From Phycisphaerales bacterium UBA7800 (GTDB lineage Bacteria; Planctomycetota; Phycisphaerae; Phycisphaerales; Phycisphaeraceae), in NCBI GenBank assembly GCA_002480565.1, contig DLCK01000080.1, positions 8,192-72,191 of the forward strand: DNA of 64,000 bases. Reading direction: 5' to 3'. Shown piece by piece: positions 3,596 through 62,922 of this stretch. The translations under genes and the position numbers were made by a program. The notes beneath the pieces were generated by a model. That model was not told where the DNA came from and did not search any database. It worked only from the letters and a program-made list of their open reading frames with translations. The number at the start of each line of letters is the position of its first letter. Position 1 is the first letter of the stretch.

Positions 3596-5071
3596 ATGAG
3601 TACCATCGACACAACTTCGCATCCCCAACCCATTACGCCGCAGTCAGGCCCTTCACTTAAGAGCCTGGCGATGCGAGGATCGTTCTGGTCAGTGGGTTCG
3701 CAAGTGGTCAACAACGGCATCCGGCTGGTTGGCAACATGGTTCTGACGCGCCTGTTGGTACCAGAGGCGTTTGGCTTGATGCTGCTTGTGGGTGTCTTTA
3801 CCGCAGGTTTGAAGATGTTCACTGATCTTGGGATCAACCAGAATATCGTACAAGCACATCGTGGTGACGATCCGGTTTTTCTGAATACGGCATGGACATT
3901 AAGTGTCTTGCGTGGTGTATTTCTCTGGCTCATTGCGTGTTTGTTCACCTGGCCGTATGCGATGTTTTACAACGAACCGCAATTGCTAATGCTGGTTCCG
4001 GCGGTGAGTTTTTCAGCGTTGATATCAGGATTTGCTTCAACACGCCTTGCGACACTTAACCGCAAACTGGCATTGGGGCGCGTGTGCTTGATTGAATTTC
4101 TCGCACAGGTGGCCAATCTGACTGCAACGGTGGGGTATGCACTGATTTGGCCCAATGTATGGGCGCTGGTAGCAGGTGCGATTGCATTTACCTCAACACG
4201 AACGCTACTAAGCCATTTTGCGATATCCGGCCACAAGGTTTGGTTTGCCTGGGATAAAGATGCAGTTAGCAGTCTTTTTCGTTTTGGACAGTGGATTTTT
4301 ATCAGCACGATTTTAACTTTCCTGGCACGACAGGCGGATAAAATTTTACTCGGCAAGCTCATCAGCAATGATCTGCTGGGTGTATACGGCATTGCATTAA
4401 CATGGGCGATTGTTCCAGCGGAAGTACTTGAACGTGTTGCCAACCAAGTGGCATTTCCCGTATTCAGTAAGCTCAAGACATCGCCTAAGGGATTGTCGTC
4501 CAGTGAGGCAGCACGTGTACGTCGACCGCTGTCGATTCTTGGTGGGATGATTGCCACAATGCTCATCGTGGGAGGGGATCACTTGATTCATTTCCTGTAC
4601 GACGACCGTTATGCCGAGGCCGGATGGATGTTGCAATTACTGGGCGTTGGGGTCTGGTTTCAAATGTTGGGCAACAGCTATTCGCCTGCCATCCTGGCTT
4701 TGGGTAACACCAAATGGCTTGCAGCAGGACATCTATCCAAGTTGCTTTCATTGTTGGTAGCTGTGCCGTTGGGATTTTATTATTACGGTATCGGTGGTGT
4801 ACTTTGTGGTGTCGCATTTTGTGAGATGGCTAAGTACAGCGTTTTTGCTTTTGCCATGTATCGTTACAAGTTGTCACAGATTCGTGACGATATCGGTTTT
4901 ACAGTATTTATCGCATTTAGTGTGGGTGTTTACTATCAGTTTAAAAACATGGTGGAATTACAGCCGCTGACCTTGGCCATTGCCAGTGTGCTTGTCACAT
5001 TGGTGTGTTGGTCGCCTTTTTCCATGTCCGTGGTACGGATGTTACGCAGAAAAAAAACTGCCTTGAAATAA
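3596..5071 (+). CDS. wzx: Wzx-type oligosaccharide flippase
   Basis: Multi-TM protein with LTRLLVPEAFGL, DLGINQNIVQ and QADKILLGKL...LGVYGIA, typical of polysaccharide biosynthesis flippases. Confidence 0.85.
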   Translation: MSTIDTTSHPQPITPQSGPSLKSLAMRGSFWSVGSQVVNNGIRLVGNMVLTRLLVPEAFGLMLLVGVFTAGLKMFTDLGINQNIVQAHRGDDPVFLNTAWTLSVLRGVFLWLIACLFTWPYAMFYNEPQLLMLVPAVSFSALISGFASTRLATLNRKLALGRVCLIEFLAQVANLTATVGYALIWPNVWALVAGAIAFTSTRTLLSHFAISGHKVWFAWDKDAVSSLFRFGQWIFISTILTFLARQADKILLGKLISNDLLGVYGIALTWAIVPAEVLERVANQVAFPVFSKLKTSPKGLSSSEAARVRRPLSILGGMIATMLIVGGDHLIHFLYDDRYAEAGWMLQLLGVGVWFQMLGNSYSPAILALGNTKWLAAGHLSKLLSLLVAVPLGFYYYGIGGVLCGVAFCEMAKYSVFAFAMYRYKLSQIRDDIGFTVFIAFSVGVYYQFKNMVELQPLTLAIASVLVTLVCWSPFSMSVVRMLRRKKTALK

Positions 5072-23718: not shown

Positions 23719-25170
23719 ATGACGCGAGCGATAATTCAATCCGCTTCATTGACGATTGCTGACCATCAGGACCCGACTATCTTCGGCCTGACGCCAACGC
23801 AATTGCACGACCGCTTCTGGGCGGCGCGTGGTGTGCAGGTGGTTCGCCAAGGCGAAGCTTCACAGATCGTTCCAGACGCAGAACTCTATCTGCTTGCTGA
23901 TCCGCGAACGATGACCATCTTTCAACTTCGACCGATTCTTGATGTACTGAATTGGATGAAGCCGGATGTGCTTTTTCTGCGTTTGCATGACACCAATGAA
24001 CATGGATATCGCGAACGTGCTGTGGCTGACGAAGATGGTCGCTTCGTGCGCTTTGAACGTATTTATGATGGTGGTGACTCTCGGTTGGCCAGGGTGGCAT
24101 TAACTGAAGACCTTGATCTGGCCAGACGTTGGCAGGCCGCACAATCACCGCGTGATGGTTGGCGGGCATTGCGTTATACCGTGCAACGAAGACTCCGTGC
24201 GACGAGATCTGTTGATGCCTCTGTGTATGATCGATCACTTGAAGTGGAACGCATGAAGTTTGTCGATGATCTGATTTCAGTTTGGCCACATCCCAATGCA
24301 ACCATCGGACGTGTGAACAAAATAGGGGACCAGGCATGGCTTGATCCTCAGGCGACCATTGGTAAGCAAGTTCAACTCATCGGGCCAGTATGGGTCGGCG
24401 CTGGACGCTTGCTTGATGTCGAAGTTCCCGTGGTCGGTCCTGTTGCATTGTGGGATAATCCCAAAGACCGTCCTGAGCCTGAAGATATTCAATGGTTGGC
24501 TATCGAACGTTCAAAGAGCTATGCTCGTATTGGCAAGATTAACGTCCGTGAACTCACATCACTTGAAACCTTTGGCAAGCGTGTTTTTGATATCGTGTTT
24601 GCGATGACTTTCCTGCTACTCACATCGCCAATTTATCCGATTGTCATGCTTCTGATCTATCTTGAAGACGGGCGACCGTTTTTCTTTGGACACATGCGAG
24701 AAACAGTAGGCGGACGCCAGTTCCCATGCTGGAAATTTCGATCCATGCGCAAGGATGCAGAAGATATCAAAAAGCGATTAATGGCTGAAAATAAAGCCGA
24801 TGGTCCACAGTTTTTTATCGAAGACGATCCGCGTATGACACGCATTGGAAAGATCATTCGCAAGTTCAATATCGACGAATTACCACAGTTCTACAATGTG
24901 ATCCGCGGACATATGTCCATTGTTGGCCCACGCCCTTCACCGTTTAAAGAAAACCAGTACTGCCCGTCATGGCGTGAAGCTCGCCTTTCTGTGAAACCCG
25001 GAGTCACCGGACTTTGGCAAGTTAAGCGATCACGACTCAAAGGTTTGGACTTCCAGGAATGGATTCGTTACGACGTGCAATATGTTCAGCAACGCAGTTG
25101 GCGATTGGATCTTTGGATCATAGTTCAGACGGTTAAAATTACATTAGGTACGATTTTTAAGCAAAAATGA
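23719..25170 (+). CDS. Priming sugar transferase (Bac_transf) with an extra N-terminal domain
   Basis: C-terminal KRVFDIV...KFRSM...DDPRMTRIG...IDELPQFYNV...GPRP...KPGVTGLWQV. Confidence 0.88.
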   Translation: MTRAIIQSASLTIADHQDPTIFGLTPTQLHDRFWAARGVQVVRQGEASQIVPDAELYLLADPRTMTIFQLRPILDVLNWMKPDVLFLRLHDTNEHGYRERAVADEDGRFVRFERIYDGGDSRLARVALTEDLDLARRWQAAQSPRDGWRALRYTVQRRLRATRSVDASVYDRSLEVERMKFVDDLISVWPHPNATIGRVNKIGDQAWLDPQATIGKQVQLIGPVWVGAGRLLDVEVPVVGPVALWDNPKDRPEPEDIQWLAIERSKSYARIGKINVRELTSLETFGKRVFDIVFAMTFLLLTSPIYPIVMLLIYLEDGRPFFFGHMRETVGGRQFPCWKFRSMRKDAEDIKKRLMAENKADGPQFFIEDDPRMTRIGKIIRKFNIDELPQFYNVIRGHMSIVGPRPSPFKENQYCPSWREARLSVKPGVTGLWQVKRSRLKGLDFQEWIRYDVQYVQQRSWRLDLWIIVQTVKITLGTIFKQK

Positions 25171-36629: not shown

Positions 36630-36862
36630 ACCAATCCATTCCAACGATTGGAACCCCGAAGCTTGACTGCTTTTCATTGTGACATGTTCACAGATGAATG
36701 GCCTGAAAGCTTCATATAACCGTACGGAGCAACCCGCCTTGCTTCGTGCGGTTTTTCTTTGGCATCAATCTGCTACATGACATCGCATGTTCAGGGACGC
36801 TTAAGTATGTCAAACACTTGAATTCCCAAAACAACCAAAATCCGCTATCCTTTTGCGTTTCC

Positions 36863-38218
36863 ATGAGCACGAATCAAACCAATACAACCAAGCCGGTCTT
36901 CGGGCATATTCTGATGGGGGGCGCATTAAGCGGCGCCTTGGTCCGAGATATCCGACTGGCAAATGAGCTGGCAAGTCGCGGGTATGAAGTCCATGTCTGG
37001 TGGGCAATGGATATCCAGAAAGACGCGCCGCTCGACAGCCGTATTCATCAACACGTCCTGTTCTCCGGCTTGCGCTATGCTTACAAAATCGGACGCCCGG
37101 TCATGGATGCTTTGGGTAAGCTTTCGCAAAAGCTTTACTCGGATAAAAAGCGTTCGCGGACGCTGCAAAAGCGTGGCAAGATGCTACAGAACATCATGGG
37201 TAATTTCCTGAAACTCGTCGCAGATGGCGTGGAAAAGGACGCTGGCCCACTTAATCGCTTCATTCGGGAAGTGTCTGAAGCCAAGATCACACACATGTTC
37301 CCCATGCTCGCGGCATTGGCGCCCTATGCCTTGGCTGCACGTGATCGCTGCCCGTTAAAACCCAAGTGTCAGATGATCTTCCAAGGGTACGAACTCTACA
37401 TCAACTACGCTCGTGCGATCGGTATTGAGCAGGATGTCTATGCCCGATTCCGTAAATGTGCAAACCAAACGGATTGGCAAGCGGTCTGTGTCAGTGAGGA
37501 TTACAAAGAACGCGTCATCGAAGATATCGGCGTCGATGCGGATCGACTCATTGCTATTCCTCCTGGTGTTCCTGCACAGCAGACACTCACTCGCGAAGAT
37601 GCCTGGAAGCATATCCATAAACGCTTTCCTGGTTTTGAGACGGACATTCCACTCATCACGTACCTGGGACGGCAGGATGTGGAGAAGGGGATTGACCTGC
37701 TGCTTTATGCCTGCAAAATACTCCAACAGCGGGGCGTGAAATTCAAGCTTCTCATTGCTGGCCCGACACTCTTTGGTGAAGCCAATCAAGTGACGATTGT
37801 TCAACTGATTGAAAACCTGCGACTTGATAAGCACGTTCATCGCAACAAAATGATTCCCGAAGACATGCGCATTGCCTTTTTCGCAGCAAGTACCTGCGTG
37901 GTCTATCCATCGATTCACCGTGAGCCGTTTGGAATGGTTCCCGTTGAAGCAGGAGCATTTGGTACGCCAGCAGTCGTCCCAGGATATGGCGGCGTTGCGC
38001 AGACCGTCAAGGTCAACGGACTACAAAGCGGTCTGCACTTTGATGTATGGGATTCAGGTAGTCTTGCAGATCAGTTGCAAAAACTCATCGAAGACAAAGA
38101 ACTTTGGCAGAAACTCTCCGAACAGGGACCAGCTGTTGCAAACTATTATTCGGTCCCCAATCTTGCCAACCGGTTATTGGACATGATGCAGATACCGTAT
38201 TCAACGGAAAATACATAA
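36863..38218 (+). CDS. Stand-alone GT4 glycosyltransferase
   Basis: YLGRQDVEKG and PSIHREPFGMVPVEA. Start ATG 36863 preferred; the track gives 36746. Confidence 0.8.
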   Translation: MSTNQTNTTKPVFGHILMGGALSGALVRDIRLANELASRGYEVHVWWAMDIQKDAPLDSRIHQHVLFSGLRYAYKIGRPVMDALGKLSQKLYSDKKRSRTLQKRGKMLQNIMGNFLKLVADGVEKDAGPLNRFIREVSEAKITHMFPMLAALAPYALAARDRCPLKPKCQMIFQGYELYINYARAIGIEQDVYARFRKCANQTDWQAVCVSEDYKERVIEDIGVDADRLIAIPPGVPAQQTLTREDAWKHIHKRFPGFETDIPLITYLGRQDVEKGIDLLLYACKILQQRGVKFKLLIAGPTLFGEANQVTIVQLIENLRLDKHVHRNKMIPEDMRIAFFAASTCVVYPSIHREPFGMVPVEAGAFGTPAVVPGYGGVAQTVKVNGLQSGLHFDVWDSGSLADQLQKLIEDKELWQKLSEQGPAVANYYSVPNLANRLLDMMQIPYSTENT

Positions 38219-40136: not shown

Positions 40137-42893
40137 TTAAATTTTGGATTCGGCCATGGCTTTACATGCCGCCAAGGCTTCATCGAGTTTGCTTGCGTCT
40201 TTGCCACCGGCCTGAGCTTGGTCTGGGCGGCCACCACCACCACCGCCGGTGAGTGTGGCTGCTTCCTTGACCCAGTCGCCTGCTTTGAGTCCTTTGGCAA
40301 TCATGGCCTTGGGGACGGATGCGATGAAAGCGAGTTTGCTGCCATCGTCTGCTGCTAACAGGATCGCGGCATTGTCACCGTGTTTGTTTTTAAACACATC
40401 CATCGCAGTCCGCAGGGTCTTGCCATCGGCACCGGGAATTTTACAGATGATAATCGACCCGTTCGCTTCATCCGCTAGTGCCTTGGCGGTTTCAACCACA
40501 TTACCGGCTGCGGCTTTGCTGGCCTGCTTCTCATGTTCCTTAACCTTGGCCTGCAACTGCGTGAGCATGTCGCGGACTTTGGCTTTGATGAGCAGGGGCA
40601 ATTGCTTCTCATTGACTGTCGCAGTGATCTGCGTAATCGCGGCTGCCAATTCTTCAACAGGTTGACTCTTAAGTGCCTCGGCACGAGCCAGCAGCAGATC
40701 GGCCTGTGCGGTTGCTTGATGTGCAGCAGGCCCGGTAAGTCCAATGATGCGCCGGATACCCTTGGCAACGGCTTCTTCGCTGATGACCACAAAGCCTTCG
40801 GCATCACCAGTCTTCTGCATATGCACACCACCGCAAAACTCGATGGAGTAGCCCGGCCACTGTTCGTTGTTCGGATCGCTGACAAGGTCACTGACCTTCG
40901 GGCCAATACTCACCACGCGAACCGTCGACGGGTACTTCTCGCCAAACACCGCTCGCAAACCATTAATCGATTGACCCTGTTCCAGTGGTACATACTCGTA
41001 GCTCACCGGCATGTCCGCTGCGATGTCCGCGTTGACCGTCTCTTCAACCAATTCGATCTGCTCAATGGTGACCGCGGAATTCTGCGTAAAGTCAAAACGC
41101 AATTTTTCGTCATCGACCAACGAACCCCGCTGATCAGCGTCAGCATTGACATGCTTGCGCAACGCGCGATTGAGCATGTGCGTGCAGGTGTGATTGAACG
41201 TGATAAGTTTACGGCGTTGTTTATTGACAGTCAGTGTGACTTGCTGCTCACCTGACGCAATGCTGTCACCTTCGGAAGTGCCAAGATGGAAGTACACATC
41301 GCCGACTTTTTGCGTGTCGGTCACGTTGAATGTGCTGTCAACCAAGGTGATCGTCCCAACATCACCAACCTGCCCGCCGGACTCCGCGTAGAAGGGTGTG
41401 GTGTCGGCCAGGACCGCGGTGACTTCGCCAAGGTCAAAAATCTGGATGTGGGTCTTGCCTGTAAACTCGGTGTTTTCGTAGCCGATGAATTCAGTCGCCT
41501 TGAACTTGTTCTTCTGCACCAACTCCACAAGCAGGGCGGTGACATCGGTCTTACCAGCTGATGCCTTGGAGACTTCCTGGTGTTGCTTCCAGCATTTTTC
41601 AAACTCAGCTTCATCGACGGTTAAGCCCTGTTCATCTGCCATGAGTCGGGTCAGATCCAAGGGGAAGCCGTAGGTGGCATAGAGTTCAAAGGCATCTTCG
41701 CCGGAGATGGTTTTGTCTTTGCTGCTCGTTGCTGCGCGGTTGAAGAGTTCAATGCCGCGGTCGAGTGTCCGACGGAAGGCAACTTCTTCTTCCTTGAGTT
41801 CGTCAATCACAGCTTGCGGATTCTTGGCCAGTTCCGGGAAGCTTTCGCCGAAGTGTTTGACGACGGTTGGGACCAACTTGTAGAAGAACGGTTCTTCAAT
41901 GTTGAACGTCTGCTTGCCGAAGCGTACCGCACGGCGGAGGATTGAACGCAGGACATAGTTGCGACCATCGTTGCCACAATGAGCACCATCGCTAAGGGCG
42001 AACGTGAGCGTGCGGATGTGGTCTGCAATCACGCGGTAGGCAATGTCCGCCGGGTTGCTCAGCGTGTCATCACCACCGTCATAGGGCTTGGCACCTGTGA
42101 CCGATTGGATGGCATCAAAGATCGGCGTGAACACGTCGGTGTCGTAGTTACTGGTCTTGCCCTGAAGCAGGCGTGTGATCCGTTCAAAGCCCATACCGGT
42201 GTCCACATGCTTGGCAGGCAAGGATTCGAGCTTGCCCGATGGCGAGCGATTGAACTGGATGAACACGAGGTTCCAGATTTCAATCACTTGCGGATCATCC
42301 GCATTGACCTTGTCACCACCGGACATGTCAGGTGTGCCGTCGTAATGAATTTCCGAGCAGGGGCCACACGGGCCGGTGTCGCCCATCTCCCAGAAGTTGT
42401 CCTTCTTGTTGCCGGGATGGATGCGTTGGGCAGGGAGATATTTTTCCCACATGGCCTTGGCTTCAAGGTCGGGTTCGAGGCCTTCGGATGCGTCCCCTTC
42501 AAAGTAGGTGGCATGCATGCGGTTTGGATCAAGCCCCCAGACATCCACGAGCAGTTCCCAAGCCCAGTCGATCGCTTCGGTCTTGAAATAGTCGCCAAAC
42601 GACCAGTTGCCAAGCATTTCAAAGAACGTGTGGTGATAGGTGTCCTTACCCACATCGTCAAGGTCATTGTGCTTGCCACCAGCCCGGATACATTTTTGGG
42701 TATTGGCAGCACGCGGGTAGGGTGGCTGTTCGGTTCCTAAAAAATAGGGCTTAAACTGGTTCATCCCGGCATTGGCAAACAAGAGTGTCGGGTCATTGTG
42801 CGGCACGACCGGGGAGGACGGCGCAAAGGTATGACCGTGCTTCTGCACAAAGAAGTCGATGAACTGCTGACGGATTTCGTTGCTCGTAGGCAT
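40137..42893 (-). CDS. alaS: Alanine--tRNA ligase
   Basis: DPTLLFANAGMNQFK, HHTFFEMLGNWSFGDYFK, VDTGMGFER, editing HTCTH...EFCGGVH, and GGGGGRPDQAQAGG. Confidence 0.98.
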   Translation of the reverse strand: MPTSNEIRQQFIDFFVQKHGHTFAPSSPVVPHNDPTLLFANAGMNQFKPYFLGTEQPPYPRAANTQKCIRAGGKHNDLDDVGKDTYHHTFFEMLGNWSFGDYFKTEAIDWAWELLVDVWGLDPNRMHATYFEGDASEGLEPDLEAKAMWEKYLPAQRIHPGNKKDNFWEMGDTGPCGPCSEIHYDGTPDMSGGDKVNADDPQVIEIWNLVFIQFNRSPSGKLESLPAKHVDTGMGFERITRLLQGKTSNYDTDVFTPIFDAIQSVTGAKPYDGGDDTLSNPADIAYRVIADHIRTLTFALSDGAHCGNDGRNYVLRSILRRAVRFGKQTFNIEEPFFYKLVPTVVKHFGESFPELAKNPQAVIDELKEEEVAFRRTLDRGIELFNRAATSSKDKTISGEDAFELYATYGFPLDLTRLMADEQGLTVDEAEFEKCWKQHQEVSKASAGKTDVTALLVELVQKNKFKATEFIGYENTEFTGKTHIQIFDLGEVTAVLADTTPFYAESGGQVGDVGTITLVDSTFNVTDTQKVGDVYFHLGTSEGDSIASGEQQVTLTVNKQRRKLITFNHTCTHMLNRALRKHVNADADQRGSLVDDEKLRFDFTQNSAVTIEQIELVEETVNADIAADMPVSYEYVPLEQGQSINGLRAVFGEKYPSTVRVVSIGPKVSDLVSDPNNEQWPGYSIEFCGGVHMQKTGDAEGFVVISEEAVAKGIRRIIGLTGPAAHQATAQADLLLARAEALKSQPVEELAAAITQITATVNEKQLPLLIKAKVRDMLTQLQAKVKEHEKQASKAAAGNVVETAKALADEANGSIIICKIPGADGKTLRTAMDVFKNKHGDNAAILLAADDGSKLAFIASVPKAMIAKGLKAGDWVKEAATLTGGGGGGRPDQAQAGGKDASKLDEALAACKAMAESKI

Positions 42894-43155
42894 TGGATGG
42901 TTCCGAGGTTTCCAGTTGAGGTAATGGCTTTAACCGTTTTGAATCGCAGAGTATAGTCGATTTGACGGTAAAGTTCATCGTCTCGGGACTCGGCCACTGC
43001 ATCAGGCTGACACCTGACAAAAGACATTGACGACGGATGTTGTCAGGATCAACCGCTTGGATGACAATGGCTTTTTCAGCCCCGCGATACGATGCGTCTG
43101 CAAATGCGTTTAGTTGTGAACTTCAAAACCGCCAATTGAACTTCAAGCAGTTGGA

Positions 43156-44727
43156 TTGGTTATAGGATTGGAAAACAAGTTGAACCTTACTCGTTTTTTG
43201 AATGTGTGTCTGTTGAGCTTGTTGTTCCCCATGACTGTGAATGCGACGCCACCGGAGCCATTGCTTCACGAGCCGTTGCCAAAAGCGTCCGCCGGACACT
43301 TACCGCGATGGCGTGGGTTTAATCTACTTAATCAATTTTACGCAGGCAGTCCGCAGCGGGATCGTCCATTTGAGGAGTCAGACTTTGCGATGATCAAGGC
43401 GTTGGGTTTTAACTTTGTTCGCCTGCCATTGGATTATCGTTGTTGGATTGTGGATGGGGATTGGGAGCAATTGGATCAAGCGGTGTTAGCTCGCATCGAT
43501 CAAGCCGTCCGGTGGGGGCAGCAGTACAACCTTCATGTGAGTCTGAATTTTCATCGTGCGCCGGGTTATACCGTTGCCAAACCTGCGGAGAAAACAAGCC
43601 TGTGGTCGGATGAAAAAACGCAGGACATTTGCGCGATGCATTGGGCGGAGTTTGCCCGGCGGTATCGTGGTATCCCGTCATCACAGTTGAGCTTTAATCT
43701 GTTTAACGAACCCAATGCAGTGAACGCAGAAGTGTATGCTCAGGTGGTGAACAAGATCGTCACTGCCATTGGTAAGCAGGACTCCGAGCGACTGATCATC
43801 TGTGATGGGATTAAATGGGGCACGCAGCCGGTGGCTGAATTGGTGCCTTTGAAAGTGGCGATGTCGACGCATTGTTACAAGCCGATGAACGTGACGCATT
43901 ACAACGCCAGTTGGGTGGCGTCCAAAGATTACACACAACCGACATGGCCGATTGCTGTGGCATTTGGCACACTCTATGCACCGGGCAAATCAGGTCTCCA
44001 GCAAGCCAGTTTTGAACCCATGGTTATTGAAGGAAAATTCAACGAGCCGACGGCTTTGCGTTTGCACGTCGATAAAGTCTCGAACAACGCGACGCTGCTG
44101 GTGCAAGCCGATGGCCAGACGATTTGGGAAAAAGCATTTGTCTGCGGCCCCGGTGATGGTGAATGGAAAGAATCCCAACACTTGCCAGAGTGGGATACGT
44201 ATCAGTGCGTGTATGACCGGGATTATGTCGTGAACATTCCTGCTCACAGCAGCAAGGTGACCGTGGCAGTAACCAAAGGTGATTGGTTACGCATCAGTCA
44301 GATCGGTATCGCGACATCAGGCAAACCCGAACACATTCAAGACCTGCGAAACGATTGGGATAAACCTACCGGGCATCTGACCTATCAACCCCAGGCCGGC
44401 AAGCCAATCTTTGTCACCAGCAAGTTTGAAGACCGGGATTGGTTAAAGGATCAAACCATGACAGACTGGTTGGCATTTCAAAAACAACATCAAGTCGGGA
44501 TCATGGTCGGTGAGTTTGGCGTTTACAATCAGACGCCTCATGATGTCGCGTTAGCATGGATGAAAGATTGCCTGAGTAATTGGAAAGAAGCTAATTGGGG
44601 TTGGGCACTCTGGGAGTTTCGTGGTTCATTTGGCATTCTTGACAGCGGCCGCAGTGATGTGGAATACGAAGACTTTCACGGTCACAAACTTGATCGCAAA
44701 ATGCTTGAGTTGTTACAGCAATATTGA
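43156..44727 (+). CDS. Secreted GH5 (cellulase family) glycoside hydrolase
   Basis: WRGFNL, GFNFVRLP, acid/base NLFNEP, nucleophile VGEFG, GWALWEFRGSFG. Start uncertain. Confidence 0.88.
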   Translation: MVIGLENKLNLTRFLNVCLLSLLFPMTVNATPPEPLLHEPLPKASAGHLPRWRGFNLLNQFYAGSPQRDRPFEESDFAMIKALGFNFVRLPLDYRCWIVDGDWEQLDQAVLARIDQAVRWGQQYNLHVSLNFHRAPGYTVAKPAEKTSLWSDEKTQDICAMHWAEFARRYRGIPSSQLSFNLFNEPNAVNAEVYAQVVNKIVTAIGKQDSERLIICDGIKWGTQPVAELVPLKVAMSTHCYKPMNVTHYNASWVASKDYTQPTWPIAVAFGTLYAPGKSGLQQASFEPMVIEGKFNEPTALRLHVDKVSNNATLLVQADGQTIWEKAFVCGPGDGEWKESQHLPEWDTYQCVYDRDYVVNIPAHSSKVTVAVTKGDWLRISQIGIATSGKPEHIQDLRNDWDKPTGHLTYQPQAGKPIFVTSKFEDRDWLKDQTMTDWLAFQKQHQVGIMVGEFGVYNQTPHDVALAWMKDCLSNWKEANWGWALWEFRGSFGILDSGRSDVEYEDFHGHKLDRKMLELLQQY

Positions 44728-44756
44728 GTCAGTTCGCAGGATGGATGATTGCTCTT

Positions 44757-45587
44757 TTACCACCACAGATAGTTGCTGCTGCATTCGAGTTGATGCAGGC
44801 CAGCTCCTGAGCTTCCGGTGATCCCCATTTCTGCTTCAGGCTTCCATTTGCCTGACCCGTCAATCAAGACGACGTTAGATCCACCGGTGCGTTGTTTGAG
44901 ATATCGATTATTGCTGTAGGGGTTGTAGCCTGAAAAGTGCCCGGAGATGGTATCGAAATTGCCGGAAGTACTACTGCGTGTTACGTCGGTGACGATGGCG
45001 TCATAATACGTTTCCTGTTCCATATCCATGGGGATGGATTCGATGCCATCGGCAACCATGTAGTACCACTTGGATGAGGAATCTTTGGCGTTTTGTGATG
45101 TACCTGCGGTAAAGCGGTCAGCACGTTGGAGTCCGACGCGACCACCGATGAGGTTATATCCGGTGATGCAGTAGTTGTACGTGTGACTGCTGAATCCTTT
45201 GCCAGTTGAAGGTCCCCAGAATGCATCACTGTTTGAAGCGGGATTGTTAGGGCAGTAGAACGAATCACGGACCAAGCCATAGCTCAGCAGATAGTCACGG
45301 GCACCACCATTGAGATGGTAGGGGCGTGAGGTTTTGGTGGTGCTGATTTCGTCGTAATAGCCTTCCCAGTTACCAGTGTCCGGGAGTTTTTGCTTGTTGT
45401 CATTGGATGCCATGAGCATGGCTTGAGCGATACTGCGAGCATTGGTCAGACACTTGAGTCGCGCAGCGGATTGCTTTGCTTTGGATAATGCAGGAAGCAA
45501 AATGGCGATGAGCAGGGCAATGATTGAAATGACAACTAACAATTCAATCAATGTAAATCCCACGCGCGAGTGTTTCGTGTGTTGCAT
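44757..45587 (-). CDS. Prepilin-type (DUF1559-like) protein
   Basis: [45 protein letters not shown]. Confidence 0.88.
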   Translation of the reverse strand: MQHTKHSRVGFTLIELLVVISIIALLIAILLPALSKAKQSAARLKCLTNARSIAQAMLMASNDNKQKLPDTGNWEGYYDEISTTKTSRPYHLNGGARDYLLSYGLVRDSFYCPNNPASNSDAFWGPSTGKGFSSHTYNYCITGYNLIGGRVGLQRADRFTAGTSQNAKDSSSKWYYMVADGIESIPMDMEQETYYDAIVTDVTRSSTSGNFDTISGHFSGYNPYSNNRYLKQRTGGSNVVLIDGSGKWKPEAEMGITGSSGAGLHQLECSSNYLWW

Positions 45588-45863
45588 GGCAGGTCTCGAT
45601 TTTAAAAAGATGCGTCTAATGTCAAAACAACGAATGTACTAAAGCAAAGAATAAAGAAATGCTATTAGAAATTATATGCGACAGGTGTATGTTCACAACC
45701 GCTATTTAGAGCCAAACATACACTGTTATAACTGTTTTTTGTACATATCGCTTGTGAAATGGGATTGTATTGATATTTCAATCCTATATAGGATTTTGCC
45801 AGTTCATATATATGTCAACGTTTTGTATGTTGTGTCTGGTTTGCGAGAGTGTTGTTGCCAGGT

Positions 45864-46706
45864 TCACCACCAGAGTTTGATGTTGCTGCCGTATTCCAGT
45901 TGGCAAAGTCCGTCGCCTTGGCTACCTGTGGTCAGTCCAAGATTGGTGCGTTGACGCCATTTACCTGAGCCGTCAACCATGAATATATTTGAACCGCCTA
46001 GGCCATCTTTGATGTATCGGTTGGAGCCTGCGGTAAATTCGTTGCGACCACTCATATGACCTGTGATCGTATCAAATGACACATTGTAGGTTCGTACCAC
46101 ATCGGTAATAATTTCGTCGTAGACTGCATCATGTTCAAGATTCAAATGAATCGACTCGACACCATCAGGAACCATTTTGACCCAACTTGCGGAACTGTCT
46201 TTGGCGGTAATGAATGTGCCAGTGCTTGCAGGATTGGCACGTTGAAGTCCAACACGTCCACCGAGGATTTGATAGCCGATGACAGTGAATTGATTGCTGG
46301 CAAATGACGATGCCAACTCAGGCCCCCAGTAGGCATCGATGTTGGCTGCGGTATTATTGGGACAGTAGAAATTTTCACGTGTCAGACCGTATTGCAACAT
46401 GTAATTTCTAGCACCTGCGTTGATGCGATACGGTTGACTGGTCGCTCCTGGATGATGATCGCCAAACTGACCGTTGGCTCCCAGCCAGTTACCCAAATCT
46501 GGAATGTTGAGTTTGTTGTCCTGCGAAGCCATCAAAATCGCTTGTCCCACACCACGGACATTGGCAAGGCATTTGACACGTATCGCTGACTCACGCGCTT
46601 TGGCAAGTGCTGGCAGCAGAATGGCTATGAGCAGGGCAATGATGGATATCACGACCAGTAGCTCAATCAATGTAAAAGCATGCCGGTAATCGCGGGAATG
46701 AATCAT
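45864..46706 (-). CDS. Prepilin-type (DUF1559-like) protein, paralogue of 44757-45587
   Basis: [43 protein letters not shown]. Confidence 0.88.
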
Positions 46707-47066
46707 ATATTTCTCTCTCCGAAACAGAAGTGAAACTTAGCGATAGGATTCCCGAGGAAATGAAATGCAGGAACCACATAGCCTTATGTTAAATTATATC
46801 TGGCATATCGACTAAGGCAATCAATTGTTTGAATCAAGATTCGGCGAAATAGTTCAGATTAAACGGGTTTTAGCCATAGTCGTAACTCTAATTGTCAGTT
46901 ATCGGCTTACCGTTTGATCATTTTGCAATTCAGATTTACATGGCCTGTATCTGCTCTGAGACATCAACCTTGCCTTGAAGAAATTTGATTGATTTATTAC
47001 CGTCAACCGTATTGTTGTCACATTTCACGATCTGCGACCTTGAACTTGTATTGCCTGGGAAAATAA

Positions 47067-48476
47067 ATGTCCACTAAACCCAACATCATCTTACTCGTCG
47101 GTGAAGACACCGGCCGACATCAACATTGCTACGGTGACCGCTTTGCCAAAACCCCCAATCTTGATCGCTTGGCAAGCGAAGGTTGCCTGTATACCAATGC
47201 CTGTAGTACCGCGCCGGTTTGTGCGCCATCGCGATCAACTTTGGTGATGGGACAGTTTGCCAACAAGGTCGGTTCGCATCACATGCGGTCAACCTTGCTA
47301 AATCCTCTACGATTGATGACGCATGAGTTGGCCGATGCTGGCTATCACGTGAACTGGGCCAACAAGACCGACTTTAACTTTGAACCGCCAGACGATTTTG
47401 CTCACGAAACTTCGGATTGGATCACAACACTTGAGCAGGGCGAATATCCAACTGACAAGCCGTTTTTTTATTACTTCAACTTCGGCATGACGCATGAAAG
47501 TGGGATGTGGCCTGAAGGCTCGTCTGGCAATCCATGCACTCATGTCGAGGAGCCTTGCGTCGATCCTAAACTCACTGAGGGGATTGATGTGCCACCCTAT
47601 CTGCCTGATACGCCAGTCGTCCGTAGTGAGTTGTATCGCTATTACCAGAAGCTTCATCAGCAGGACCAGCAGATCGGTCGAGTTCTCAACGCGCTCGATG
47701 GACAAGGCTTAACCCAGAACACCGTTGTTATCTATCTCACTGATCATGGCAGAGGACAGATCCGCGAAAAACGTTGGCTCTATGAAGCAGGTATCCATTT
47801 ACCTCTTATTATCCGCGCGCCGGGAGTTACAACACCAGGCAGCTTCTGCGAACAACTTGTGAGTTGGGTCGACATTGCACCGACCCTGCTAAGTTTGGCA
47901 GGTGTTACGATTCCTGACAGCTATGATGGCCGTGTTATTCTCGGTGAAAACCGACAGTCTGAACCGCAATGCATTTTTGCTGCCCGTGATCGCATGGACG
48001 AATGTTTCGATCGCGTCCGTGCAGCAAGGAGTCGCAGATTTTTGTATCTCCGCAATGACTTCCCGCAATTACCCTGGGCTCAGCGATTGCGATACATGGA
48101 GATCATGCCCGCCACGCGAGAGGTTCGACAGATGCATGTTGATGGCCAATTGAACTTCCCCGCAAACCTGTTTATGCAACCGACCAAACCCGCCGAAGAG
48201 TTGTACGATATCGTGGTCGATCCGCACTGTATTCATAATCTCGCAGATGATCCACGCTATGCCGACACGCTCGCGACCCATCGCAATGAGGTTGCTCACT
48301 GGATCAAACGCATTGATGACAAGGGCTATCAAACCGAACGTCAGTTAATTGAGCAGGGCATTGTCAAAAATCGACTGGATGATGAATACGCGCTGCGTAT
48401 CGAACCATTAACGGAACCCACTCGCATGGGCGGAGTGTATGACTCACATCTCACACAAGAGTGTTTGTCAGATTGA
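47067..48476 (+). CDS. Cys-type S1 sulfatase
   Basis: KPNIILLVGED, formylglycine motif CAPSRSTLVMG, LTDHG, EELYDIVVDP. No signal peptide evident. Confidence 0.92.
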   Translation: MSTKPNIILLVGEDTGRHQHCYGDRFAKTPNLDRLASEGCLYTNACSTAPVCAPSRSTLVMGQFANKVGSHHMRSTLLNPLRLMTHELADAGYHVNWANKTDFNFEPPDDFAHETSDWITTLEQGEYPTDKPFFYYFNFGMTHESGMWPEGSSGNPCTHVEEPCVDPKLTEGIDVPPYLPDTPVVRSELYRYYQKLHQQDQQIGRVLNALDGQGLTQNTVVIYLTDHGRGQIREKRWLYEAGIHLPLIIRAPGVTTPGSFCEQLVSWVDIAPTLLSLAGVTIPDSYDGRVILGENRQSEPQCIFAARDRMDECFDRVRAARSRRFLYLRNDFPQLPWAQRLRYMEIMPATREVRQMHVDGQLNFPANLFMQPTKPAEELYDIVVDPHCIHNLADDPRYADTLATHRNEVAHWIKRIDDKGYQTERQLIEQGIVKNRLDDEYALRIEPLTEPTRMGGVYDSHLTQECLSD

Positions 48477-57579: not shown

Positions 57580-58413
57580 TTAGTCCGGGTGATCATGCCG
57601 CCAGACACGTCCTTTTGCTTGTCGGTATGCCAGGGGATTGACGCCGACATGCTTGAGAAACATATGGCTGAAATGACTCGACGAGTTAAAGCCGATTTCA
57701 AGAGCGATATGGGTGATTGGAAGTGAACTGCTGATGAGCAATTGCTTGGCACGTTCCAGTCGTAATTCCGTTAAGCGTTCAGCTAGTGTCTGCCCGGTCG
57801 CATGACGATAGACTCGTGCAAGATGAGCAGGAGACAGAGCGACGACTTTCCCCAAGTCATCCCGTGTCAACGAGCGATGCAGATTACTTCGCATAAAGGC
57901 ATCAAGCTGTTCGATGCGTGCTTCATGTTGCGGGTGCGGCGGATGGGATGGCGAAGATGTTGTTTGCGGTGAATGATCACGCGCCAAGCCAATGAGCAAC
58001 CGTGTGGTTAGAGACAGAATCAAATCGTTGGCATCATGCTGCCCGGGACTTTGCAATTCGTCGATGAGTGTCGCCATATCCTGTTTCAAGGCACTACCCA
58101 GTGAAAGCACTCTGTCATAACATGCATCGAGTTGCAGGCGGTGATTTTCAAAGTTGACCCAGAAATAGCCAATCCCACTTTTGCGTGAACTGGCGCAGCA
58201 AGGTGATCGCATTGCACCGGGCGGGATGATTAGCGACTCACCGGGATTAAGTGTGTAGACCTTGTCTTGAACAGTCATTTCTGCACGCCCGTACTGAACG
58301 CCATACCACTGGACATCGCTGCGAAAATGCGCGGTGACTTTATAGTTTGGCCCACGTTCATTCCATGCTGCTGCATAGACGGTGATGGGATAGGGGGGCA
58401 ATGTTTCTGTCAT
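57580..58413 (-). CDS. AraC family transcriptional regulator
   Basis: Cupin-like HFRSDVQWY...LNPGESLIIPPG and C-terminal HTH LSPAHLARVY...IALEIGFNSSSHFS. Start ATG 58413 with AGGA upstream. Confidence 0.88.
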   Translation of the reverse strand: MTETLPPYPITVYAAAWNERGPNYKVTAHFRSDVQWYGVQYGRAEMTVQDKVYTLNPGESLIIPPGAMRSPCCASSRKSGIGYFWVNFENHRLQLDACYDRVLSLGSALKQDMATLIDELQSPGQHDANDLILSLTTRLLIGLARDHSPQTTSSPSHPPHPQHEARIEQLDAFMRSNLHRSLTRDDLGKVVALSPAHLARVYRHATGQTLAERLTELRLERAKQLLISSSLPITHIALEIGFNSSSHFSHMFLKHVGVNPLAYRQAKGRVWRHDHPD

Positions 58414-58867
58414 GTTGCGTCCTGACGTTATACGTTGCTTTATCCTACCTGTTTCGTGATTTGCTTGCTGGTGTGATTCAAATCTCATGTGTTCGCTCAA
58501 ATCAAGCGATAAATATTTAATCGAATATACCAAAATAGCAATATGCAAGAACGGCAATATGGCAACATGGAAATATAGAGAAAAAGCAATGTATGCGACC
58601 AGCAATATTGCTATCGCGATATATGCGCCACGAGTAATATTCACTTTCTGCTGTAAAAAAGATAAAATGGTGTGGAAATAAAAAGATTCACTTTTATAAT
58701 TAAATACGACATACAGGCGCGATCCACTTCGTGGTTTTATTTCATATGTTTCAACTGCCCGGTGTTTAGTATCCCCTGTCGATCCGTTTGATAGATCGTT
58801 TAAATTCTCTGCATCTACTCATCTTTATCGCTAACTTTCTCACACATTCATCAGGAGTGCGTTTCTT

Positions 58868-60784
58868 ATGAGAAGATCCAAGCGGGTTGATCAACCTAAT
58901 GATCAGGAACTTGATCCTGGATGTACAAGTCGCAATCCTCAGTACGGTGAATTGCAGCATTCGACTGTCATATTTAGATACCTCAAGCGATTAGGTGTGA
59001 TGGCGTTAGTCATGATAGGGGTTTTCTTTCTGATCACATTCCCTTCAAGCAACATGGCTCAGACGCCAGTCGATGCTGATGTGTCAAAGTCTATCGATGA
59101 TCAGGCAGTGACACCCGCTAATGCCAATGTGATGCAAGCTGCCTCGCTGGCCGATGACAATCCCAAACTTAAATCCAGTACCGCTGATCACACGAAGTTT
59201 GAGATTCTGCAACAGAATTTTGCAACAGGCCCTGATGTGACTGCAGCATGTTTGACTTGTCATACGGACGCAGCCAAGCAGTTAATGAAGACCAGTCATT
59301 GGACATGGATATGCCCACGCGCCCGACAGGAGTTGGAACAGAAGCAAGGGCGTGCAGTGGGTAAGGGCGAACATATTATTAACAACTTCTGCATTGCGCT
59401 AGGGTCCAATGAACCACGTTGTACATCCTGTCACGCTGGTTATGGCTGGGAAGACAAGAACTTTGATTTTGGCAATGAGACTCTCGTTGACTGTCTTGTT
59501 TGCCACGACACCACCAAGTCTTACAAGAAGTTCCCGACTGCTGCGGGGCATGCAGTTTATGCCAGCGAATTTCCTAATGGTCGTGAATGGCCCAAGGGGT
59601 CTGGCAAGATGTGAAAGCCTGCTGATTTGAAAAACATTGCCATGAACGTTGGCAAGCCTTCAAGACACAACTGCGGGACTTGTCACTTCTTTGGCGGGGG
59701 CGGTGAAGGTGTCAAGCATGGTGATATGGATGTGTCACTGGCCAAACCCCATCCCGGCATCGATGTGCATATGGCCCAGGGGTTGGATTTCAAATGTACG
59801 CAGTGTCATACCACCGTCGCTCATCAGGTATCCGGACGCTGTTTTACCATCCCGGCTTTGGAGGAAAAGGAATTTGCTTTGTTGGGGCATGAAAGTAACA
59901 AACTACTTGCCTGTGAATCCTGTCACACTCAAACACCACACCAGATAGCCAAGCTCAACGATCACACCGATCGTGTCTCCTGTGAAGCATGCCACATCCC
60001 GACAATGGCACGAGAACGTCCGACTAAAATGTGGTGGGACTGGTCGCTGGCGGGCAAGAAAACCCCCGAAGGCAAGCCCATTGTCAAAAAGGCTGATGTC
60101 AAGGGAACCAAAGTCAATGTCTATGACACCAAGAAGGGTGAGTTTATTTGGATCAAGGATGAGAATCCTGAATACATCTGGTTTAACGGCGAGATGAAAC
60201 ACTCATTTATCGGTGATGTGATTGATGACAAGACACCCGCATCAGAAGTCCCAGGTGTAACCAAAGGACGCTTTGACAAACTTGACATGTCCAAGCCGAT
60301 TGTCCGGATCAATATCCCCGGTGGTGATGCCAATGATCCTGATTCCAAGATTGTCCCGGTGAAGATTCATCGCGGTAAACAGGTGTATGACAGCAAACGC
60401 AAAATCCTGGCGGTCCCCAAGCTCTTCCCAGCAGGTGAGAACAAGGGTGTCGCATATTGGAAAGCCTACGACTGGGATAAGGCCATTGCTGCGGGGATGG
60501 ACTATATCGGTCAGGAGTACAGCGGCGAGTACGATTTTATTCAGACTGAAATGGTCTGGCCGCTGGCACACATGGTTCCTACTGCCAAGGATGCAGTGAG
60601 TTGCGCTGAATGTCATACACCGCAGGGGCGACTTGCCAATATTAGTGGAATCTATATCCCAGGCCGGGATCGTAATCCAATGATCGACATCGTGGGGTGG
60701 GGCTTGGTCGTGTTGACGCTCCTTGGTGCTGCGGGACATGGACTTCTGCGGCTGGTATCCAAGGGTAAGGGAGAAGATAAATGA
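58868..60784 (+). pseudogene. Octaheme tetrathionate-reductase-family cytochrome c interrupted by one in-frame TGA (59612-59614)
   Basis: Track ORFs 58868-59614 and 59627-60784 share a frame. Three CxxCH (CLTCH, CTSCH, CLVCH) plus five (CGTCH, CTQCH, CESCH, CEACH, CAECH) give 8. Pseudogene, sequencing error and readthrough cannot be distinguished here. Confidence 0.75.
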
Positions 60785-61416
60785 AAAAGGTCATGGTTTA
60801 TAAACGCTTTGAACGCTTCTGGCATTGGCTCCAGGCCTTGCTGATTATCCTTCTGGCTCTCACTGGATTTGATATCCATTATGCCCAGTTGCATCTCTTT
60901 GATTTTCATATGGCACATCAGATCCATCAGGTCTGTGCATGGTCATTTATTGTCCTGGTCGCGTTTGCTATTTTCTGGCATATTACGACCGGCGAGTGGA
61001 AGCAGTACATTCCTACCCGTAAGTATGTTGGTGCCATGATTCAGTTTTATCTGGTGGGTATCTTCAAAAACGCACCGCATCCAGTGAAGAAGACTTTGAT
61101 CAGTAAGCTCAACCCCTTGCAGAAACTGGTCTATTTAGGACTGAAGATTTTGATCATTCCAGTCATGGTGACGACTGGCTTGATGTTGATTTACTACAAC
61201 GAATTGTTGGCAGCGGGTTACAACCTTTCACTTGGAGTGCTGGCTACGATTCACACCATCGGAGCATTCGGATTGATGGTGTTCCTGGCAGGACATATTT
61301 ATTTGATTACGACCGGACATACACCCATGTCCAATCTCAAGGCCATGATCACCGGCTATGAAGAATTGGATGAGAACGATACACAACCTACGGAATCCGT
61401 CGCGAATCAGGCTTAA
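60781..61416 (+). CDS. Cytochrome b/b6 domain membrane protein (FdnI/PhsC-like)
   Basis: ERFWHWLQA, KLNPLQK, IHTIGAF...GHIY; about 4 TM segments with His ligands. Overlaps the octaheme gene stop. Confidence 0.85.
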   Translation: MKKVMVYKRFERFWHWLQALLIILLALTGFDIHYAQLHLFDFHMAHQIHQVCAWSFIVLVAFAIFWHITTGEWKQYIPTRKYVGAMIQFYLVGIFKNAPHPVKKTLISKLNPLQKLVYLGLKILIIPVMVTTGLMLIYYNELLAAGYNLSLGVLATIHTIGAFGLMVFLAGHIYLITTGHTPMSNLKAMITGYEELDENDTQPTESVANQA

Positions 61417-61467
61417 TTGCCATACATATCGTTTTTGACTGAAAGTCAAACAAGAGAGGAAACGTTG

Positions 61468-62922
61468 ATGTTTAAGTCCACAGCCATCGTTACGCTTATC
61501 CTATGTCTGTGCTGTACAGGTCTGCTTGCTGAGGATGCAGCAGTGTCCCAGTCCAGTGCAGATGATGTTGTTAAACCCAAGAAGTCTGTGTGGCCGGCCT
61601 ACGCCAAGATGCGCTTCACTGAAGATTACAGCCAGACTGCCAACGCCAAACACCGCGATGTGTTTGATGCTCTTAAGAATATATCCATCGGTGATGATCC
61701 TGATTGGTATGCAAGCTTTGGTGGGCAAGTGCGTATTCGTTACGAAGACTATCAGAATTTTAATTTTGGTCGTCCGGCTGTTAACGATGACGGCTATGTC
61801 CTGCAGCGATATTTTCTGCACGCGGACATGCATTTTGGCAAAGCCTTTCGCATCTTTACCGAGATCCGCAGTGCATGGGCCACCGACTGGGATTTGTCCA
61901 ACAGTACCGCGCCGCATCCATTGAACTTTCATGATGAGTTCGATTTCATGAATCTGTTTGGTGAGTTGAATTTGAATCTGTCCGATGACCTTATGGCCAC
62001 CATTCGCGCGGGACGCTGGGAAATGAACTACGGGATGGGGCGCGTGATCGGTTGCCGTGACTGGTCACAGACACGCCGTCCGTTTGACGGAGTCTCGGCT
62101 CGACTGAACAGTGGCAAAAACTGGATTGATGGTTTCTGGGCCAATTGGGTTCAAGTGCATCAGTATGAAGCGTTCAACAGCAGCGATGAAGATATCCAAA
62201 GTTGGGGTGTCTATGCACATCTGCAACAGGGCGGTCGACTGCCGTTTAACACCGAGCTTTATCTGCTGGGTAAAGACAACACCACCGGCAGTCGTGACGA
62301 TCATCGCATCACGATTGGTGGGAGGGTTTTTAGTACGATCAAGGACACTGATTTTTCTTACGATGTCGAAGGTGCTTATCAGTTTGACTATCAAGGCACG
62401 GACGTTTCAGCCGGTTTCTTTGCTGCTGAATTGACCTACAAATTCAAGCAGTACGATACCAAACCATGGATTTCCGCAGGATTCGACTGGGCTTCAGGTG
62501 ATGGTGATTCGACGGATGGTCAGATCAACACCTATGAGCCGGTCTCTGCATTTGGTCACTACTATTTCGGTTACATTGATCAGATTGGACGCCAGAATAT
62601 TGTCAGCCCTTGGCTCCGTCTGGGATTTAAGCCAATCAAGAAGTTGACCACGATCGCTGAAGTGCATTGGTTCTGGGCAGAGCAGGCAGCGGATGGCATC
62701 TACAGTCCGTGTAACTGCTCCAAGGTGATGCGTGGCGGTGTCGCCGGTGCCAACAGTTTTATCGGGACCGAATTGGACTTGCTGGTGAAGTACAAACTTG
62801 ATCATCACACCATGCTCATGGCTGGTTACAGCTACCTTTGGGCGGGGGACTACGTGGATGACACCGGTTCGGGAACCGATGATGTACAGCGTGTCTACGT
62901 TCAGATGCAGTTTAATTTTTGA
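61468..62922 (+). CDS. Alginate export (AlgE-like) family outer-membrane beta-barrel
   Basis: Signal peptide, GGQVRIRYE, YVLQRYFLHAD, IRAGRWEMNYG, FDWASGD, ELDLLVKY, terminal Phe. Start ATG 61468 with GAGAGG upstream. Confidence 0.8.
   Translation: MFKSTAIVTLILCLCCTGLLAEDAAVSQSSADDVVKPKKSVWPAYAKMRFTEDYSQTANAKHRDVFDALKNISIGDDPDWYASFGGQVRIRYEDYQNFNFGRPAVNDDGYVLQRYFLHADMHFGKAFRIFTEIRSAWATDWDLSNSTAPHPLNFHDEFDFMNLFGELNLNLSDDLMATIRAGRWEMNYGMGRVIGCRDWSQTRRPFDGVSARLNSGKNWIDGFWANWVQVHQYEAFNSSDEDIQSWGVYAHLQQGGRLPFNTELYLLGKDNTTGSRDDHRITIGGRVFSTIKDTDFSYDVEGAYQFDYQGTDVSAGFFAAELTYKFKQYDTKPWISAGFDWASGDGDSTDGQINTYEPVSAFGHYYFGYIDQIGRQNIVSPWLRLGFKPIKKLTTIAEVHWFWAEQAADGIYSPCNCSKVMRGGVAGANSFIGTELDLLVKYKLDHHTMLMAGYSYLWAGDYVDDTGSGTDDVQRVYVQMQFNF

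What the first reader, a model, noticed from the sequence alone, without database searches (positions are those of the whole stretch)
59590..59660. Single in-frame TGA splits an otherwise intact octaheme cytochrome
The frame reads GSGKM-TGA-KPADLKNIAMNVG, with 3 hemes before and 5 after. No other lesion is evident, the partner genes are intact, and there is no clear RBS or signal peptide for the second half. From recall, homologues have Trp near here, so a TGG>TGA mutation or base-call error is most likely. A 6-bp hairpin (TTGCCA-TGAACGT-TGGCAA, 59637-59655) has its loop 28 nt after the TGA with G in second position, which loosely fits bacterial SECIS geometry. Recoding is therefore worth excluding.
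Basis: partly seen in the sequence, partly recalled or inferred. Interest (0 to 1): 0.65.

Follow-up and report, generated by a model that had tools for sequence, protein, structure and literature searches.

The report
Nonsense mutation in octaheme cytochrome gene
A single G-to-A change has turned a conserved tryptophan codon into a stop codon inside an otherwise intact octaheme cytochrome gene of a widespread marine planctomycete; it is a real mutation, not a sequencing error and not a selenocysteine codon, so the finding is ordinary.

Summary
TGA at 59612-59614 lies in frame inside a 638-codon tetrathionate-reductase-family (OTR, TIGR04315) octaheme cytochrome gene, with 3 CxxCH motifs before it and 5 after.

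- **Ancestral codon:** the closest relative (85% identical) has TGG there. In 119 homologous proteins and 80 genomic loci that column holds W/Y/F/V/M, never Cys and never TGA.
- **Not an error:** identical sequence, TGA included, stands in contigs of at least six separate metagenome assemblies. The truncated 248-aa product is indexed in 109 blocks of a public gene collection. No intact allele of this lineage was found.
- **Not selenocysteine:** the family has a real Sec site, but at the invariant Cys of INNFC (window C175, here TGC). Four Desulfobacterota species carry TGA there, each followed by an identical 7-bp hairpin with a GGC loop.
it passes the loose published SECIS model, but so do 13% of ordinary TGG codons in this window. 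It is absent from the sister gene.
- **Normal code:** TGA ends 21 of 48 genes here.
- **State of the gene:** no second lesion and no significant decay, so the mutation is young. Low-level Trp readthrough is possible but untested.

The parts
58868..59611 (+). OTR gene, part before the stop: 248 codons. It holds the N-terminal membrane anchor (LGVMALVMIGVFFLITF), the invariant G165-K166, the INNFC motif, and heme motifs 1-3.
59390..59392 (+). TGC codon for Cys175 (INNFC). This is the column that is the family's Sec/Cys site; here it is an ordinary Cys codon.
   Evidence: In 80 loci this column holds 75 Cys, 4 TGA and 1 Ala.
59612..59614 (+). In-frame TGA at the position of a conserved Trp. The following base is A.
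   Evidence: The sister gene has TGG.
59615..60784 (+). OTR gene, part after the stop: 389 codons plus the terminal TGA. It holds heme motifs 4-8, the Cytochrome_cB domain and a C-terminal membrane helix.
59637..59655 (+). 6-bp hairpin with a 7-nt loop, within coding sequence. It is at chance level, is absent from the sister gene, and is not a demonstrable SECIS.
60781..61416 (+). Partner cytochrome b subunit (Ni_hydr_CYTB / thiosulfate-reductase cytochrome b-like), intact. Its start overlaps the OTR stop (ATGA).
61417..62922 (+). AlgE-like outer-membrane beta-barrel (Alginate_exp), intact. The public gene call starts at 61468.
57580..58644 (-). Divergent AraC-family regulator. The public gene call is 277 aa, 57580-58413.

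Best explanation
A single transition (TGG to TGA, third base) converted the codon for a conserved hydrophobic or aromatic residue, Trp249, into a stop codon in the gene for a membrane-anchored octaheme cytochrome of the tetrathionate-reductase (OTR) family. The organism is a marine Phycisphaerae planctomycete.

The change is a real allele, carried by every sampled copy of this near-clonal, widely distributed population. Release factor 2 terminates translation at 59612-59614. The main product is a 248-residue fragment with the membrane anchor and three heme sites. It lacks hemes 4-8, the C-terminal domain and the C-terminal anchor, so the enzyme is lost or nearly lost.

The downstream 385 codons cannot make a working second piece. 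They have no signal peptide, and c-type heme attachment needs export (inference).

Because UGA is the leakiest stop and near-cognate Trp-tRNA is what reads it, a small fraction of ribosomes may restore exactly the ancestral full-length protein. This is inferred from E. coli and was not tested here.

The lesion is young. There is no second lesion, and the partner genes are intact.
For: - The sister gene (85% aa identity) has TGG at the aligned codon.
- That column holds W 62, V 19, Y 18, F 9, M 4 in 119 homologues. In 80 genomic loci it holds Y 33, F 19, W 14 and others, with no TGA and no Cys.
- Contigs of runs X1, X4, X6, X7, X9 and X12 match with 0 differences over the site, at depths 7-31.
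- The 248-aa product ending at this stop is indexed in 109 blocks of the gene collection. All 24 contigs read have the same split layout.
- The best full-length hit in 5.8 billion proteins is only 85% identical, so no intact allele of this lineage is on record.
- TGA is a normal stop here: 21 of 48 genes end in it, there are 349 TGG codons in frame, and no other gene in the window is split by an in-frame stop.
- All 8 CxxCH motifs are kept. The gene departs from only 2 of 126 columns that are at least 95% conserved, against a family median of 1.
- UGA is read by Trp-tRNA in competition with RF2, at about 2-4% in an E. coli reporter (PMC10570021).
Against: - The allele is fixed in a globally sampled population with no further decay. 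The relative-rate test downstream of the stop gives 9:3 (p = 0.15). The controls give 7:8 for cytochrome b and 10:8 for AlaS. This would also fit a gene still under selection.
- Contigs drop rare variants, so a minority TGG allele cannot be excluded.
- The Sec machinery of the genome could not be examined.
- No protein data exist.
Confidence: 0.85

Rival explanations
1. Selected leaky stop. The UGA-A is kept because low-level Trp readthrough supplies a useful small amount of full-length OTR, so the stop acts as an expression attenuator.
For: The allele is fixed in all sampled assemblies. There is no second lesion, and only 2 of 126 conserved columns are changed. The cytochrome b and porin partners are intact and evolve at the sister's rate. 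Readthrough by Trp-tRNA would restore the ancestral residue.
Against: The stop is not shared with the sister or with any of about 200 relatives. The population is near-clonal, with 0-1 differences over 2.8-7 kb, so fixation needs no selection. There is no stimulatory structure beyond chance. A young pseudogene predicts the same data.
Confidence: 0.08
2. Selenocysteine codon. The UGA is recoded by SelB through the 59637-59655 hairpin.
For: The hairpin formally meets the published loose bSECIS model: 7-nt loop, 6-bp stem, G at loop position 2, 28-nt spacing (PMC13188914). The OTR family is listed as containing a GenBank-annotated selenoprotein. Some Planctomycetota (Ca. Brocadia) encode a multiheme selenoprotein (PMC13510729).
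Against: The family's Sec site is at another column, window C175. There, 4 of 80 loci have TGA opposite 75 Cys, each followed by the same 7-bp stem and GGC loop 20 nt downstream. The window has TGC at that column. The window's TGA column has no Cys and no TGA anywhere, and the sister has TGG and no hairpin. 13% of ordinary TGG codons pass the same model, and the local fold is weaker than average. There is no Rfam match.
Confidence: 0.02
3. Split gene. The two halves are made separately (restart at TTG 59627 or ATG 59642) and assemble into a working enzyme.
For: In-frame start codons lie 13 and 28 nt after the stop. Public gene callers annotate a 380-aa second product.
Against: The second half has no signal peptide and no ribosome-binding motif, and without export its five CxxCH sites cannot receive heme (established biology of c-type cytochrome maturation). 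None of about 200 homologues is split here. The ends of N-terminal fragments in the database are scattered, with no pile-up at this column.
Confidence: 0.03
4. Sequencing or assembly error in the window's source assembly.
For: It is a single-base difference from the sense codon.
Against: The same base is found in at least six separately assembled runs from several studies, at depths up to 31. It is also in Tara and ENA assemblies that are identical to the window or differ at one other base.
Confidence: 0.01

Closest known systems
Octaheme tetrathionate reductase OTR of Shewanella oneidensis (PDB 1sp3; NCBIfam TIGR04315)
   Same: It aligns over residues 112-589 (E = 8e-112). It has eight CxxCH motifs, the INNFC motif and a preceding conserved Lys.
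   Different: The window gene carries a premature TGA. It has N- and C-terminal membrane helices. It has a 19-residue insertion that ends at the mutated Trp. It also has an extra co-varying Cys pair, C149/C325, and sits with a cytochrome b and an AlgE-like porin.
Selenocysteine forms of the OTR family (listed as GenBank-annotated, WP_331457571.1, in PMC13188914; found here in L063, L071, L088, L089)
   Same: Same protein family, with an in-frame TGA inside the gene.
   Different: Their TGA replaces the invariant Cys of INNFC. It is followed by a conserved 7-bp, GGC-loop SECIS 20 nt downstream, and it recurs in four Desulfobacterota species. The window's TGA replaces Trp 74 codons further on, is unique to one lineage, and has no conserved structure.
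MccSep/ExtKL pentaheme selenoprotein of Geobacter sulfurreducens (PMC13510729)
   Same: A multiheme c-type cytochrome whose gene was annotated as two ORFs because of an in-frame UGA.
   Different: It belongs to a different family (five hemes). Its Sec is at a conserved Sec/Cys site next to the active heme and was proven by mass spectrometry and selenium content. None of these marks applies here.
Leaky UGA nonsense alleles read by Trp-tRNA in E. coli (PMC10570021)
   Same: A UGA codon competed for by RF2 and Trp-tRNA. Readthrough would insert Trp, the ancestral residue here.
   Different: The readthrough was measured in E. coli K-12 reporters (about 2-4%). Nothing is known for Phycisphaerae, and it is untested here.

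Membership tests
[quoted passage not shown] | Score above the curated cut-off over the full-length model | tested here: met
   557.5 bits against a cut-off of 375, model positions 1-440 of 440, one stretch across the stop.
[quoted passage not shown] | Eight CxxCH heme-binding motifs | tested here: met
   All eight are present and fall in invariant columns.
[quoted passage not shown] | Conserved Lys and Cys of the GK...INNFC segment. Their role as the active-heme ligand and neighbour in 1sp3 is recalled from memory. | tested here: met
   K166 and C175 are invariant in A1 and aligned to the 1sp3 segment.
[quoted passage not shown] | Uninterrupted reading frame | tested here: not met
   TGA at codon 249.
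Bacterial selenoprotein gene | UGA aligns with Cys (or Sec) in homologues | tested here: not met
   The column holds W/Y/F/V/M, with 0 Cys and 0 TGA in 119 proteins and 80 loci.
Bacterial selenoprotein gene | SECIS stem-loop just downstream, conserved among Sec-bearing orthologues | tested here: inconclusive
   It passes the loose model, but 44 of 331 control TGG codons also pass. It is absent in the sister gene, and z = -1.41. The true OTR SECIS looks different.
Bacterial selenoprotein gene | selA, selB, selD and tRNA-Sec present in the genome | not testable with these tools
There is no tRNA in the window. The genome is not in genome contigs.
Programmed stop-codon readthrough | The stop codon is conserved at that position among relatives | tested here: not met
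   The sister has TGG. No other lineage has a stop there.
Programmed stop-codon readthrough | Readthrough product present | not testable with these tools
   No proteomic data. The RNA contigs are flat and low, so uninformative.
Nonsense-mutated gene (young pseudogene) | Premature stop relative to full-length homologues, one base from the ancestral sense codon, and real in the DNA | tested here: met
Nonsense-mutated gene (young pseudogene) | Signs of relaxed constraint after the lesion | tested here: inconclusive
   Lineage-unique replacements downstream are 9:3 (p = 0.15; 4:3 to 10:5 with other outgroups). The controls give 7:8 and 10:8. One population SNP, I328L.

The most novel reading that the evidence does not exclude
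The UGA-A at Trp249 is not a dead end. It is a maintained leaky stop: a cosmopolitan marine Phycisphaerae population keeps its OTR operon at a few percent of normal output through Trp-tRNA readthrough that restores the ancestral protein.
Probability: 0.07. Interest if true: 0.5.

Novelty: already known. Interest (0 to 1): 0.15.

Why it matters
For this window it matters little. It is a young nonsense allele of a respiratory cytochrome gene, and annotation should mark the two ORFs as one disrupted OTR gene, not as a selenoprotein.

Two side results have some use:
- The work pins down where the real Sec site of the OTR family lies (INNF-U, opposite the invariant Cys) and what its SECIS looks like. 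This gives a concrete yardstick for judging in-frame TGAs in multiheme cytochromes.
- It shows that the published loose bSECIS model is met by about one in eight ordinary codons in this genome. A model hit alone should not raise a Sec call.

The fixation of a knockout allele across many ocean samples also hints that this reductase is dispensable for this population in the sampled waters.

Tried and rejected
- **Exact 39-mer with TGR in GTDB genomes and JGI metagenomes:** no hit, so the organism is not held there.
- **Rfam around the site:** only a chance CRISPR-DR hit at E = 9.
- **tRNAs in the window:** none.
- **Earlier scan notes on this genome:** nothing relevant.
- **Metatranscriptome X17:** flat depth of about 3-6 over all genes and both sides of the stop; no contig crosses the TGA; uninformative. 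X20 and X21 hold nothing.
- **Runs with partial word share (X16, X18, X19):** low coverage, not variant strains.
- **Other OTR fragments ending at the same column:** ends are scattered, and the fragments checked (L006-L009) are frameshifts, deletions or contig ends.
- **TGA = Trp or another code:** rejected, because 21 of 48 genes stop at TGA.
- **Relative-rate tests for decay:** not significant.
- **Engelberg-Kulka 1981 and Fan 2017:** not held in the library. The claim that a 3' A raises UGA leakiness therefore rests on my memory of the 1981 title and paper and is not used as evidence.
- **Structure prediction:** not run, because the tool returns no coordinates from which burial of residue 249 could be judged.

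Full report
**Observation**

The window carries an ORF from ATG 58868 that stops at TGA 59612-59614. The same frame stays open to TGA 60782-60784. Read through, it gives a 638-residue protein.

- The solved Shewanella OTR (1sp3) aligns over residues 112-589 at E = 8e-112.
- Three CxxCH motifs lie before the stop and five after it. All eight fall in invariant columns.
- It is the only gene-internal single-stop split in the 64 kb.

**What stood at the stop codon**

- In an alignment of 119 homologues the column opposite the TGA holds W 62, V 19, Y 18, F 9, M 4. It holds no Cys.
- The nearest relatives all have W.
- The closest gene is 85% identical in protein. It comes from a 7.4-Mb genome, CP087563.1 (locus L001), and has the same OTR, cytochrome b and AlgE-like porin operon.
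- That gene aligns codon for codon and has TGG where the window has TGA.
- Trp has a single codon, so the change is one G-to-A transition at the third base.
- In 80 further OTR loci from GTDB species genomes the column holds Y 33, F 19, W 14 and a few aliphatic or other residues. It holds no TGA and no Cys.

**Error or real**

- Logan contigs of runs X1, X4, X6, X7, X9 and X12 cover the site with no difference from the window. They come from several studies and years. Contig lengths run from 1.4 to 23.6 kb and depths from 7 to 31.
- Some runs look like one data set filed twice (X3 with X6, X11 with X12) and are not counted separately.
- The 248-residue product that ends at this stop is indexed in 109 blocks of the public gene collection.
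- All 24 contigs read have the same split layout, including Tara Oceans scaffolds.
- One of those scaffolds is identical to the window. Another differs at a single base, 59849 A/C, which gives I328L.
- A search of 5.8 billion proteins found no full-length protein closer than 85%, so no intact allele of this lineage is on record.

A base-call error is excluded. The allele is fixed, as far as contigs can show, in a near-clonal and widely sampled marine population. AlaS places the organism in the Phycisphaerae: it is 88% identical to 'Phycisphaeraceae bacterium JB051'.

**Genetic code**

TGA ends 21 of 48 long genes in the window, including this gene itself. There are 349 in-frame TGG codons, and this is the only gene interrupted by an in-frame TGA. 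A reassigned TGA is excluded.

**Selenocysteine**

A 2026 review lists the TIGR04315 family among prokaryotic selenoprotein families. The entry is 'GenBank annotated' and names no motif (PMC13188914). The reading therefore deserved a real test.

Scanning the 80 genomic loci for in-frame stops gave four with a TGA, all at one column:
- L063, Desulfohalobiaceae
- L071, Desulfobacter postgatei
- L088, Desulfohalobiaceae
- L089, Desulfobacteraceae

That column is the Cys of the INNFC motif, window C175. Across the 80 loci it holds 75 Cys, 4 TGA and 1 Ala. Each of the four TGAs is followed by the same 7-bp stem (GCAACGA/UCGUUGC) with a GGC loop that starts 20 nt after the UGA. This is what a Sec site in this family looks like.

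The window has TGC at that column (59390-59392). Its TGA lies 74 codons further on, in a column that never holds Cys.

But:
- 44 of 331 ordinary TGG codons in the window's genes (13%) meet it too.
- The local fold (-11.3 kcal/mol for UGA plus 60 nt) is weaker than the mean of those controls (-13.7).
- Its z-score against shuffles is -1.41.
- The sister gene has no such hairpin.
- Rfam finds nothing.

I put the Sec reading at about 2%.

**Recurrent recoding of another kind**

I searched the N-terminal fragment alone, so that full-length proteins were excluded by length. The question was whether other lineages have OTR fragments that stop at the same column.

- The ends of 120 fragments are scattered, with no pile-up at residues 248-249.
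- The fragments examined on long contigs are frameshifts, deletions or contig ends.

The stop is unique to this lineage.

**State of the gene**

- The gene departs from only 2 of 126 columns that are at least 95% conserved (P229A, R494K). The median among homologues is 1.
- Lineage-unique replacements, window versus sister, polarised by outgroups:

| Region | Window : sister | Note |
|---|---|---|
| OTR before the stop | 2:2 | |
| OTR after the stop | 9:3 | p = 0.15; 4:3 to 10:5 with other outgroups |
| Cytochrome b (control) | 7:8 | |
| AlaS (control) | 10:8 | |

. There is at most a hint of relaxation.
- About 4% of single-base changes in the 389 downstream codons would create a stop. The absence of a second stop therefore bounds neutral drift to below roughly 0.06 substitutions per site at 95%.
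- This bound is small beside the divergence from the sister, which is about 25% at the nucleotide level.

The lesion is young relative to that split, or the gene is still under some selection. These data cannot separate the two.

**Mechanism**

- Shown: the DNA encodes a stop where a Trp codon stood.
- Inferred: termination gives a 248-residue fragment with the membrane anchor and three heme sites. This fragment cannot form the eight-heme chain.
- Inferred: a restart at TTG 59627 or ATG 59642 would give a protein without a signal peptide. It could not be exported for heme attachment.
- Inferred from E. coli only: UGA is read by Trp-tRNA in competition with RF2 at 10^-3 to 10^-2, and at about 2-4% in one reporter (PMC10570021). 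A small amount of the exact ancestral protein may therefore be made.
- Whether that leak is selected is the only open reading with any novelty. I rate it at about 7%.

**Comparison with known systems**

The gene is a member of the OTR family by every sequence criterion except an intact frame. It is not a member of the selenoprotein class, because the defining Sec/Cys correspondence was tested and not met.

It differs from MccSep/ExtKL, the proven pentaheme selenoprotein that was also once annotated as two ORFs (PMC13510729). The family, the site and the conservation all differ.

**Verdict**

This is an ordinary nonsense allele. It is real and fixed in the sampled population. It is not recoded by selenocysteine as far as comparison can show. 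Interest is low.

Noticed in passing
L063:1690-1692, L071:1792-1794, L088:1873-1875, L089:1720-1722: Four Desulfobacterota OTR genes have TGA in place of the invariant Cys of INNFC. Each is followed by an identical 7-bp stem with a GGC loop 20 nt downstream (coding NEARC instead of NEPRC). This locates the Sec site and SECIS of the OTR family, which the 2026 review lists only as 'GenBank annotated' without a motif.
   Followed up: partly
window 58868-62922; L001:8001-12101; L009:1-4022: OTR, a cytochrome b (Ni_hydr_CYTB) and an AlgE-like beta-barrel (Alginate_exp) travel together in the window and its sister. They appear in another order in an unrelated contig. This suggests an outer-membrane channel dedicated to the reductase's substrate.
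   Followed up: no
window 59312-59314 (C149) and 59840-59842 (C325): Two non-heme cysteines co-vary almost perfectly across homologues: 78 have both, and almost none has only one. This suggests a disulfide or a shared site in a large subfamily that excludes Shewanella OTR. Both are kept in the window.
   Followed up: partly
window 59849: An A/C polymorphism (I328L) separates the ERR1726725 assembly from the window and a Tara scaffold. It is the only difference seen in 3.7-7 kb and is non-synonymous, downstream of the stop.
   Followed up: partly
window 40137-48476 versus L001:1-7417: alaS and a sulfatase lie upstream of the OTR operon in both the window and the sister genome, but the window has about 10 kb of extra genes between them (GGDEF/GAF protein, others). 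There is partial synteny with insertions.
   Followed up: no
window 1100-38200: A long run of same-strand genes for polysaccharide synthesis: Polysacc_synt flippase at 3596-5071, sugar transferase at 23719-25170, GT4 glycosyltransferase at 36746-38218, and an AAA_31 chain-length-regulator-like protein at 21261-23588.
   Followed up: no
window 57937: The metatranscriptome contig of X17 reads A where the window has C, inside the AraC regulator gene. This is a strain variant or an error.
   Followed up: no
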